Positions 49,205 to 49,436 of a stretch of DNA of 64,000 nt are shown here, piece after piece (position 1 is the stretch's first letter; each line of letters begins with the position of its first letter). The translations under genes were made by a program, and so were the position numbers. A model generated the notes under the pieces. It was given only the letters and a program-made list of their open reading frames with translations. It had not been told where the DNA came from and did no database searches. Origin of the DNA: Escherichia coli (lineage in GTDB: Bacteria; Pseudomonadota; Gammaproteobacteria; Enterobacterales; Enterobacteriaceae); the NCBI RefSeq assembly GCF_001677475.2, contig NZ_CP015229.1; one strand, 5' to 3'.

Positions 49205-49434
49205 TCAACGCATTACCTTCATTACCTGCTTCATCTTCTCCTGCGTGATCGCCATATCCAGAATGCGGCAGATCACTTCCTGATCGTCTGCTTTAAGCTC
49301 ATCAACCTGCTTACACAGTTCCTTTAACCGCTTGTTTTTAATATCGAAAACAGGAGCGGTGGAACCTTCTTCACCCAACAGCAGGTGGTCAATACTGACT
49401 TCCAGAAGCTGGGCCAGCTTAATGATGTAATCAG
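49205..49434 (-). pseudogene. 3' fragment of an XRE-family HTH regulator gene, truncated by H-repeat insertion
   Basis: Minus-strand translation DYIIKLAQLLEVSIDHLLLGEEG... (about 76 codons to stop at 49207-49205) starts abruptly at the H-repeat boundary; no start codon. Confidence 0.45.
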
Positions 49435-49436
49435 GG

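What the first reader, a model, noticed from the sequence alone, without database searches (positions are those of the whole stretch)
49205..49436. XRE-family regulator gene truncated exactly at the H-repeat boundary
The minus strand encodes the C-terminal about 76 residues of an HTH regulator (DYIIKLAQLLEVSIDHLLLGEEG...), ending right where H-rpt sequence begins (49437). The insertion therefore removed the N-terminus and promoter of a regulator next to the first SymE-like gene, possibly its dedicated repressor. The second unit lacks this fragment.
Basis: seen in the sequence. Interest (0 to 1): 0.35.

Follow-up and report, generated by a model that had tools for sequence, protein, structure and literature searches.

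The report
Transposon-truncated remnant of a repressor gene
This is the dead 3' end of a small DNA-binding repressor gene, cut off at the tip of an insertion sequence in an E. coli Rhs toxin locus; it is an ordinary pseudogene, but it marks where a little-studied repressor-primase-recombinase module once sat next to a SymE toxin gene.

Summary
The minus strand of 49205-49433 encodes the last 75 residues (D58-R132, 100% identical) of a 132-aa XRE-family protein, WP_001401944.1. That protein is intact in 44 of 5426 complete E. coli genomes. Homology stops at the left inverted repeat of a 1291-bp H-rpt/ISEc1 element (49432-50722). The remnant has lost helices 1-3, including the recognition helix, and also its promoter and operators. 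It is a pseudogene.

- A simple insertion cannot remove sequence. The 5' half, the primase and the recombinase are nowhere in the window, and there is no target duplication. Insertion plus deletion or recombination is required.
- The regulator is probably not "dedicated" to SymE. Across Enterobacterales and beyond it lies divergent from a primase-helicase/XerC-like operon. A conserved promoter with an AGGTCA-N4-TGACCT palindrome sits between them.
- The protein resembles RstR of CTXphi. At the same locus in another E. coli strain it is swapped, together with that intergenic region, for a 29%-identical allele, while the symE leader stays constant.
- SymE-1 keeps its own SymR-like antisense RNA.

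The cHTH-SymE pairing was published in 2007. Interest is low. The flanking module is the more interesting lead.

The parts
49205..49433 (-). Pseudogene remnant: stop codon plus the last 75 codons (D58-R132) of a 132-aa XRE/RstR-like repressor. It keeps helices 4-5 of the HTH domain, the linker and the C-terminal helical hairpin. It lacks helices 1-3, the start codon, the promoter and the operators.
49432..50722 (+). Complete H-rpt / ISEc1-like (ISAs1-family) insertion sequence, 1291 bp. IRL 49432-49449, IRR 50705-50722 (15/18 match). Transposase ORF 49576-50712 (378 aa). No target-site duplication. 2-3 bp (T)CA overlap with the HTH remnant.
49125..49199 (+). SymR-like antisense RNA candidate opposite the symE-1 start and 5' UTR. 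A -10 element TAATAT lies inside the symE CDS. Its terminal hairpin covaries across genera. Its 3' end is 6 nt from the HTH stop codon.
   Evidence: (38.5 bits, below the gathering score of 61)
48801..49130 (-). SymE-like gene 1 (109 aa, intact). It was formerly the downstream gene of the HTH-symE pair.
   Evidence: (PF08845, 77.9 bits)
48765..48792 (.). Bidirectional terminator-like hairpin between the immunity ORF and the 3' end of symE-1.
50723..51239 (+). Right flank of the IS. The first 12-15 bp (ACCATCTGACGGATG) are shared with many other H-rpt copies. A truncated orphan toxin tip follows (50737-50922, 61 aa), then a putative immunity ORF (50919-51239). This flank is not the other half of the HTH gene.
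51319..51648 (-). SymE-like gene 2 (109 aa), with a SymR-like candidate at 51643-51718 (+). No HTH remnant is detectable upstream.
51745..52439 (+). Truncated, degenerate second H-rpt copy, about 92-93% identical to the first. It was the recombination partner of H-rpt 1 in strains that lost unit 2.

Best explanation
The fragment is a non-functional remnant of the repressor gene of a four-part module. The module consists of an RstR-like XRE repressor, a divergently transcribed DnaG-primase/helicase, an XerC-like tyrosine recombinase and a roughly 350-nt structured element. In some Enterobacterales this module sits between orphan toxin/immunity cassettes of Rhs and CDI loci, with a SymE/SymR-like gene pair just downstream of the repressor.

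In the intact state (inferred), the repressor dimerises through its C-terminal helical hairpin. It binds the AGGTCA-N4-TGACCT palindrome, plus a third half-site, which overlaps its own -35 TTGACC / -10 TATAAT promoter in the roughly 100-bp divergent region. It would thereby shut off both its own transcript, which can read through into symE, and the primase-recombinase operon.

In the window's lineage, an H-rpt (ISAs1-family) end became joined to codon 57/58 of this gene. Everything beyond that point was lost: helices 1-3, promoter, operators, primase, XerC and the structured element. The loss was by transposition followed by deletion or IS x IS recombination.

What is shown: identity, boundaries, loss of parts and the comparative context. 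What is inferred: operator binding, co-transcription and the order of events. The remnant itself is predicted to do nothing. SymE-1 remains under its SymR-like antisense control.
For: Identity and truncation:
- establish the identity and the breakpoint.
- The intact protein has HTH_3 at residues 20-74 (46.6 bits). The fragment has no Pfam hit.
- The structural model gives helices at 13-26, 31-38, 42-49, 57-67 and 71-76, plus a hairpin at 91-131.
- No start codon or Shine-Dalgarno sequence is available. The only in-frame start is TTG at 49378. No promoter-like site lies on the minus strand between 49131 and 49440.

Context:
- The HTH is divergent from the primase and XerC in E. coli, Pectobacterium, Photorhabdus, Xenorhabdus, Budvicia and Rosenbergiella, and in Synechococcus and gammaproteobacterial MAGs that lack SymE.
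- The promoter and palindrome are invariant from E. coli to Synechococcus (alignment A4).
- The full-length protein matches NCBIfam NF041951 RstR (residues 15-126, 78.9 bits).
- At the same chromosomal locus in strain JNE120442, the HTH and intergenic region are exchanged as a unit. The HTH is 29% identical and the operator unrelated. The symE leader (91% identical, up to the HTH stop) and the primase 5' end (about 95%) are kept.

Loss by more than insertion:
- No HTH 5' half, primase or XerC is present in the window.
- The IS flanks AATGATGTAAT and ACCATCTGACG are unrelated to each other.
- A second, independent junction exists. In strain 14EC033 a 97-bp remnant abuts a different H-rpt variant.
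- Drafts L038 and L039 are H-rpt1 x H-rpt2 recombinants that carry the same junction.

All four coding differences from the intact allele are synonymous. This fits divergence that occurred before a recent truncation.
Against: - No experiment on this protein exists. Operator binding, auto-repression and read-through into symE are inferred from architecture alone.
- The RstR model score (78.9) is just under its cutoff (80).
- HTH-SymE pairs persist without an intact primase in Xenorhabdus yunnanensis, Pantoea dispersa and Chimaeribacter. A direct HTH-SymE functional link is therefore not excluded.
- The same remnant is kept in at least 8 assemblies, with 0 non-synonymous changes out of 4. That could hint at residual constraint, although the numbers are too small to tell.
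- The order of events (insertion then deletion, or IS-mediated adjacent deletion) cannot be resolved. No genome with a split HTH gene was found.
Confidence: 0.75

Rival explanations
1. First reader's model. The HTH protein is the dedicated repressor, or a type II-like antitoxin, of the adjacent SymE-like toxin. Its truncation de-represses or unleashes SymE-1.
For: The gene lies on the same strand, 74-87 bp upstream of a SymE-family gene, in nearly all Enterobacterales loci. The pair survives where the primase is gone (L014, L030, L036). Kawano et al. 2007 predicted cHTH-SymE operons with the cHTH as repressor/antitoxin. The protein gives weak hits to HipB, MqsA and PezA antitoxin models.
Against: No operator-like palindrome lies between the HTH stop and symE. 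The operators sit at the HTH/primase intergenic region. The HTH type and that region swap together while the symE leader is unchanged. Non-enteric relatives keep the primase but have no SymE. A SymR-like antisense RNA with a covarying hairpin is present in both HTH-linked and HTH-less symE copies. Most E. coli SymE-like genes, in thousands of genomes, have no HTH at all. All antitoxin-model hits are far below their cutoffs.
Confidence: 0.2
2. The remnant is kept because its DNA still serves symE in cis. The last few dozen bases of the HTH gene and its stop-codon region would carry the symE-proximal promoter and/or the SymR-like terminator, so deletions cannot extend further.
For: Both independent junctions keep at least 97 bp of the HTH 3' end. 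Unit 2 keeps 96 bp upstream of its ATG. The motif TGATATTTAACGCG, which spans the HTH stop codon, is conserved across genera and resembles an extended -10 element (A6). The SymR-like hairpin ends 6 nt from the stop codon.
Against: The consensus promoter scan found nothing on the minus strand there. Only the last 10-30 bp would be needed, not 229 bp. This explains a lower limit on deletions, not the particular breakpoint.
Confidence: 0.2
3. The remnant is expressed as a C-terminal-domain peptide, for example the 57-aa ORF from TTG 49378. It would act like SinI on SinR, as an anti-repressor on intact copies elsewhere in the genome, or as a residual SymE-neutralising domain.
For: The C-terminal helical hairpin is complete. 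Two-domain XRE repressors of this shape include SinR, whose antagonist SinI is a hairpin-only protein (fold match to 1b0n). Zero of four substitutions are non-synonymous. Gene callers annotate the 57-aa ORF in 7 draft genomes.
Against: There is no Shine-Dalgarno sequence or promoter. The start codon would be TTG. No intact HTH copy or operator exists in the window. Another lineage has trimmed the remnant to 31 codons, as expected for neutral decay.
Confidence: 0.05

Closest known systems
cHTH-SymE predicted operons (Kawano, Aravind and Storz 2007, Mol Microbiol 64:738; PMC1891008, Fig. 7A)
   Same: A Cro/cI-type HTH gene lies immediately upstream of a SymE-family gene. A primase-helicase gene is adjacent, and Rhs/haemagglutinin genes are nearby. 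This is the intact form of what is truncated here.
   Different: The paper treats the cHTH and the sRNA as alternative regulators. Here the HTH-linked symE copies also carry a SymR-like antisense RNA. The paper does not describe the operator, the XerC-like recombinase, the structured element or IS-truncated remnants.
RstR, repressor of Vibrio cholerae CTXphi (NCBIfam NF041951)
   Same: The match covers nearly the full length (residues 15-126). The gene is divergent from the element's replication gene. Repressor and intergenic region are exchanged as a highly divergent 'immunity' cassette between otherwise similar elements. The heteroimmunity of rstR/ig-2 is recalled from established literature and was not re-read here.
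   Different: The score of 78.9 is just below the curated cutoff of 80. The partner is a DnaG-primase/helicase plus its own XerC-like recombinase, not RstA/RstB. No phage structural genes are present.
Two-domain XRE repressors of mobile elements (SinR/SinI, ImmR of ICEBs1, C. difficile transposon protein 3ivp, Listeria 3op9)
   Same: A five-helix HTH domain followed by a C-terminal helical dimerisation hairpin. These are the top fold and sequence matches.
   Different: Sequence identity is only 19-37%, mostly over the HTH domain. No anti-repressor or protease partner was identified.
H-rpt / ISEc1 (ISAs1 family) elements of E. coli rhs loci, e.g. ydcC at rhsE
   Same: Same element: 96% identical to ydcC of strain 14EC033, 1291 bp, with a DDE_Tnp_1 transposase. 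It lies in the same locus, between ansP and pptA.
   Different: Its left end abuts a regulator-gene remnant rather than the usual symE-proximal sequence. This junction is absent from 5426 complete genomes.
SymE/SymR type I toxin-antitoxin of E. coli K-12
   Same: SymE_toxin domain. An antisense RNA candidate of about 75 nt starts a few nt inside the CDS and covers the ribosome-binding site.
   Different: The Rfam symR scores (38-48 bits) are below the gathering score (61). Unit 1 has no LexA box. The gene is embedded in Rhs orphan arrays rather than at hsd.

Membership tests
XRE / Cro-cI HTH regulators (Pfam PF01381 HTH_3) | Five-helix HTH domain scoring above the Pfam gathering threshold | tested here: not met
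   The intact homologue scores 46.6 bits against a cutoff of 23, at residues 20-74. The window fragment alone gives no Pfam hit and retains only helices 4-5. It is a remnant of a member, not a member.
RstR family repressors (NCBIfam NF041951) | Whole-protein score at or above the curated cutoff of 80 bits | tested here: inconclusive
   The intact homologue scores 78.9 bits (E=3e-22), residues 15-126 against profile positions 2-107 of 108. This is just under the cutoff.
RstR family repressors (NCBIfam NF041951) | Divergent from the element's replication gene, with operators in the shared intergenic region; heteroimmune allele/operator swapping | tested here: met
   The divergent primase lies 98-150 bp away. 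The palindrome overlaps the promoter. The allele and intergenic region are swapped together in JNE120442. Actual binding was not tested.
cHTH-SymE predicted operon (Kawano 2007) | HTH gene on the same strand, directly upstream of a SymE-family gene | tested here: met
   The spacer is 74-87 bp in E. coli, Pectobacterium, Photorhabdus, Xenorhabdus, Budvicia and Pantoea. In the window only the 3' remnant is left, 74 bp from symE-1.
cHTH-SymE predicted operon (Kawano 2007) | HTH protein represses or neutralises SymE | not testable with these tools
   Requires genetics or biochemistry. Comparative evidence argues against a symE-proximal operator.
Type II antitoxins with an XRE domain (HipB/Y4mF, MqsA, PezA, HigA) | Score above the curated cutoff of the antitoxin models | tested here: not met
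   TIGR03070 scores 36.2 against 71.65. TIGR03830 scores 25.9 against 61.8. NF041575 scores 23.6 against 290.
ISAs1-family insertion sequence (H-rpt / ISEc1) | DDE_Tnp_1_assoc plus DDE_Tnp_1 transposase, flanked by terminal inverted repeats | tested here: met
   PF13808 115.8 bits and PF01609 106.5 bits. Inverted repeats match 15/18 at 49432-49449 and 50705-50722.
ISAs1-family insertion sequence (H-rpt / ISEc1) | Direct target-site duplication flanking a simple insertion | tested here: not met
   The flanks AATGATGTAAT and ACCATCTGACG are unrelated. This indicates rearrangement after insertion.
SymR antisense RNA (Rfam RF01809) | Covariance-model score at or above the gathering score of 61 bits | tested here: not met
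   38.5 bits (49125-49199) and 48.3 bits (51643-51718). Position, strand, the embedded -10 element and 12 covarying pairs support a related RNA.
SymE toxin family (Pfam PF08845) | SymE_toxin domain above the gathering threshold | tested here: met
   77.9 and 74.0 bits against a cutoff of 29 for the two window copies.

The most novel reading that the evidence does not exclude
The remnant is a fossil of a self-contained mobile unit of roughly 6.6 kb. The unit would comprise a dif-like core inside a ~350-nt structured element, a toxin tip, an immunity gene, SymE with its SymR-like RNA, the RstR-like repressor, the primase-helicase and the XerC-like recombinase. It would integrate site-specifically and pile up in tandem, delivering new C-terminal toxin tips to Rhs and CDI loci. 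That would supply the integrase the C-terminal-displacement model lacked. In most E. coli, H-rpt elements would have repeatedly destroyed the machinery, leaving SymE-plus-H-rpt scars like the ones in this window.
Probability: 0.25. Interest if true: 0.7.

Novelty: new member of a known kind. Interest (0 to 1): 0.25.

Why it matters
By itself the fragment matters little. It is an IS-truncated pseudogene, and SymE-1 still has its antisense control.

Its value is as a marker. It shows that the common E. coli arrangement 'orphan toxin - SymE - H-rpt' can derive from a rarer arrangement, 'orphan toxin - SymE - repressor - primase - recombinase'. Such modules were once at the rhsE/T6SS locus of this lineage.

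If those modules prove to be the vehicles that move Rhs/CDI toxin tips, remnants like this one could be used to trace past cassette acquisitions. The repressor and its operator would then be the switch controlling that mobility.

Tried and rejected
1. I looked for the other half of the HTH gene, the primase and XerC anywhere in the window by tblastn and blastn. None was found.
2. I looked for a target-site duplication at the H-rpt. There is none.
3. I searched 5426 complete E. coli genomes for the same junction and found none. It was found only through an exact look-up of the 57-aa ORF in draft assemblies.
4. I searched for a complete genome with a split HTH gene, that is a 5' half next to an IS. 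None was evident.
5. I searched for the operator palindrome near symE. The only hit is a 2-mismatch match inside the coding remnant (49386-49401), judged to be chance or a coding constraint.
6. I tested whether unit 2 hides a remnant of a divergent HTH allele. Beyond the first 34 nt, its 96-bp upstream region matches no HTH locus.
7. I looked for a LexA box upstream of symE-1 and found none. Unit 2 has a weak CTG-N10-CAG.
8. I searched for a solved structure or family for the C-terminal domain. Only generic two-domain XRE repressors came up.
9. I searched Rfam for the structured element downstream of XerC. There were no credible hits.
10. I searched the literature for a description of the primase-XerC module in Rhs loci. 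Only Kawano 2007 Fig. 7A and a note on Rhs-associated integrases in bee-gut bacteria turned up.

Full report
WHAT IS THERE

The window is E. coli. The stretch 52450-56450 is 99.7% identical to E. coli chromosomes at the GGDEF / alkyl-sulfatase / pptA / yddH side of the rhsE-type T6SS-Rhs locus.

On the minus strand, 49205-49433 reads ...DYIIKLAQLLEVSIDHLLLGEEGSTAPVFDIKNKRLKELCKQVDELKADDQEVICRILDMAITQEKMKQVMKVMR*. A megablast of the region found E. coli genomes in which this sequence continues into a complete 132-aa 'helix-turn-helix domain-containing protein', WP_001401944.1. That gene lies directly upstream of a SymE-family gene.

The window matches residues 58-132 at 100% amino-acid identity. 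Over window 49100-49433 it is 98.2% identical at nucleotide level. All four differences inside the coding part are synonymous.

Homology ends at 49433. From 49432 the sequence is the left inverted repeat of an H-rpt/ISEc1 element:
- It spans 49432-50722, 1291 bp.
- The inverted repeats are CAGGGAAAGATCACGTAA and, reverse-complemented, CAGGGCAAGATTACGAAA, matching 15/18.
- The transposase is 378 aa with DDE_Tnp_1_assoc and DDE_Tnp_1 domains.

Unit 2 (symE-2, 51319-51648, followed by a truncated H-rpt from 51745) has no such remnant.

WHAT THE FRAGMENT HAS LOST

The intact protein has a Pfam HTH_3 domain at residues 20-74. The fragment alone hits nothing. An AlphaFold model built on 20 homologues (mean pLDDT 82) shows helices at 13-26, 31-38, 42-49, 57-67 and 71-76. 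A linker and a C-terminal helical hairpin (91-101, 105-131) follow.

The remnant begins in helix 4, so the helix-turn-helix proper is gone. The frame is closed by a stop inside the IS. The only in-frame start is a TTG with no Shine-Dalgarno sequence. No promoter-like site was found on that strand. It is a pseudogene.

HOW IT WAS TRUNCATED

An insertion splits a gene; it does not remove half of it. Four observations bear on this:
- The window contains no other piece of the HTH gene, and no primase or XerC.
- The two flanks of the IS are unrelated, so there is no target duplication.
- The right flank is a 12-15-bp sequence shared with many other H-rpt copies, followed by a truncated orphan toxin tip and an immunity ORF.
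- The left junction was therefore made by a transposase-mediated event at the IS tip. The intervening DNA was lost by an adjacent deletion or by recombination with another H-rpt.

None of the 5426 complete E. coli genomes has this junction. An exact look-up of the 57-aa ORF found it in seven draft assemblies, three of them 100% identical across the junction.

Two of those drafts (L038, L039) have a single unit. In them the H-rpt carries H-rpt-1 SNPs for its first ~160-400 bp and H-rpt-2 SNPs thereafter. They are recombinants between the two H-rpt copies of a window-like ancestor and have deleted unit 2.

A second, independent junction exists at the same locus in strain 14EC033 and two others. 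There, only 97 bp of the HTH 3' end remain, abutting a different H-rpt variant, ydcC. Both junctions share a TCA with the IS tip.

WHAT THE INTACT GENE IS

Only 44 of 5426 complete E. coli genomes carry it intact.

In every one inspected it is divergently transcribed, 98 bp away, from a ~910-aa DnaG-type primase (CHC2 zinc finger plus Toprim). An XerC-like tyrosine recombinase follows the primase. The whole unit recurs in tandem between orphan toxin/immunity cassettes. An example is SymE-HTH-primase-XerC-orphan-SymE-HTH-primase-XerC-orphan-SymE-ybgA in strain D6.

Homologues at 60-90% identity occur in Salmonella, Xenorhabdus, Photorhabdus, Pectobacterium, Yersinia, Erwinia, Budvicia, Pantoea, Dickeya, Providencia, gammaproteobacterial MAGs and a Synechococcus. 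In 37 fetched loci the pattern is:
- The primase is the neighbour in most loci, including non-enteric ones that have no SymE (L007, L033, L034).
- A SymE-like gene follows the HTH in nearly all Enterobacterales, including three loci without an intact primase.

The intergenic region contains an invariant -35 TTGACC / -10 TATAAT promoter for the HTH gene. It is overlapped by the perfect palindrome AGGTCA-N4-TGACCT and a third half-site (A4).

The full-length protein matches the RstR (CTXphi repressor) model over residues 15-126 at 78.9 bits, against a cutoff of 80. Fold and sequence neighbours are two-domain XRE repressors of mobile elements.

The most telling case is E. coli JNE120442. It has an uninterrupted SymE-HTH-primase-XerC array at the same chromosomal locus as the window:
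- Its HTH is only 29% identical.
- Its intergenic region is unrelated.
- The symE gene and leader are 91% identical to the window, right up to the HTH stop codon.
- The primase 5' end is ~95% identical.

Repressor and operator region thus behave as one exchangeable 'immunity' cassette. The symE leader does not co-vary with it.

IS IT SymE's DEDICATED REPRESSOR?

Kawano et al. (2007) already described cHTH-SymE predicted operons, with a primase-helicase and Rhs/haemagglutinin genes nearby. They inferred transcriptional control by the cHTH (PMC1891008).

My evidence narrows it:
- No operator-like site lies between the HTH stop and symE.
- The symE leader is independent of the HTH type.
- Both window symE copies, and the HTH-linked copies in four other genera, carry a SymR-like antisense RNA candidate. 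It sits at the expected position and strand. It has a -10 element inside the symE CDS and a terminal hairpin showing 12 covarying pairs. The Rfam scores are below gathering (38-48 against 61).

The HTH can therefore affect symE at most by read-through from its own auto-regulated promoter. Its primary role is most likely that of master repressor of the primase-recombinase module. Loss of the HTH in the window leaves SymE-1 with its antisense control. This is consistent with thousands of E. coli genomes in which SymE-like genes sit next to H-rpt with no HTH at all.

NOVELTY AND VERDICT

The fragment is a real, correctly spotted, but ordinary IS-truncated pseudogene of a gene family whose association with SymE is published. 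Interest in the finding itself is low.

The surrounding biology is less ordinary. Jackson et al. [quoted passage not shown] Yet a repressor-primase-XerC module sits between orphan tips in several genera. It carries a conserved ~350-nt structured element with 27 compensatory pairs and a dif-like core, and has no Rfam match. This is recorded as a lead and as the novel case. It is not in the window and was only partly followed up.

Noticed in passing
Related loci, not the window: L003:4945-5301 and 11578-11934; L001:3326-3682 and 9895-10251; L005:1608-1954(-); L006:594-943(-); L009:1456-1803(-) and 8697-9044(-); L015:601-949(-); L021:1496-1841(-) and 7952-8297(-); L045:15321-15594: A ~350-nt GC-rich non-coding element lies immediately 3' of the XerC-like recombinase in every module where that flank is available. 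RNAalifold predicts 87 pairs, 27 of them with compensatory changes across E. coli, Pectobacterium, Photorhabdus and Budvicia. There is no Rfam match. It contains an invariant dif/cer-like core, ATTCAACATAA-N7-TTACGCGAAAT, once per unit. It could be the att site, an origin or a structured RNA of the module.
   Followed up: partly
Related loci L003 (E. coli D6, ybgA/phrB side), L001, L009, L021, L045: Tandem arrays of [orphan toxin tip - immunity - SymE - HTH - primase/helicase - XerC-like recombinase] occur inside Rhs and CDI/TPS loci. Jackson et al. [quoted passage not shown] These units may be mobile toxin-tip cassettes.
   Followed up: partly
window 49125-49199 (+) and 51643-51718 (+): SymR-like antisense RNA candidates lie opposite both symE starts. 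Rfam symR scores are 38.5 and 48.3 bits, below the gathering score of 61. A conserved -10 element (TAnnAT) lies inside the symE CDS. A terminal hairpin has 12 covarying pairs across 9 genera/alleles, and the G-U bias favours this strand.
   Followed up: yes
window 48931-49059 (+) and 51449-51577 (+): Rfam isrA (the Salmonella island sRNA, RF01385) matches well above gathering (115 and 104 bits against 51). Both matches are antisense to, and inside, the two SymE-like coding sequences. A partial Ssr1 match overlaps the same regions.
   Followed up: no
L038:3254-3947 and L039 (draft E. coli assemblies GCA_031341795.3, GCA_034608915.1), compared with window 49432-50127 and 51745-52439: These strains carry a chimeric H-rpt. 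It has H-rpt-1-type SNPs near the HTH junction and H-rpt-2-type SNPs from about position 400 on. They lack unit 2. This is a clear case of homologous recombination between the two ~92%-identical H-rpt copies deleting an orphan toxin/immunity/SymE unit.
   Followed up: yes
L012:5001-5097 (E. coli 14EC033; also strains 100416 and CUWW06): A second, shorter HTH remnant (97 bp, 31 codons) abuts the left end of a different H-rpt variant (ydcC) at the same ansP-pptA locus. Both independent junctions share a TCA microhomology with the IS tip (T)CAGGG. This may reflect a target preference or a microhomology-mediated event.
   Followed up: partly
L045:10496-11019 (E. coli JNE120442): A second HTH allele (123 aa, 29% identical) with an unrelated HTH/primase intergenic region occupies the same slot between conserved symE and primase sequences. 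This is a heteroimmunity-like cassette swap. Eleven complete genomes carry this primase variant.
   Followed up: partly
window 51712-51727 (minus strand): Unit 2 has a CTG-N10-CAG motif (CACTGATTTTTAACGCAGAT) about 65-80 nt upstream of symE-2. It sits at the position homologous to the HTH stop-codon region of unit 1, which reads GCGTTGATATTTAACGCGAC and lacks the motif. It may be a degenerate LexA box like that of K-12 symE.
   Followed up: partly
window 50723-50737: The 12-15 bp just outside the right inverted repeat of the H-rpt (ACCATCTGACGGATG) are shared with H-rpt copies in thousands of other E. coli genomes, often next to RHS core genes. This suggests H-rpt copies spread with a bit of flank by recombination rather than by transposition.
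   Followed up: no
window 50737-51239: The orphan toxin tip (61 aa) and putative immunity ORF (106 aa) of unit 2 have no Pfam hit. They have no megablast match in 5426 complete E. coli genomes.
   Followed up: no
L007:3004-6390 (Synechococcus sp. PCC 7336): A 69%-identical HTH with the same promoter/palindrome and the same large primase occurs in a cyanobacterium. It is followed by DUF6888/DUF6887 genes instead of SymE. This points to long-range horizontal transfer of the repressor-primase pair.
   Followed up: no
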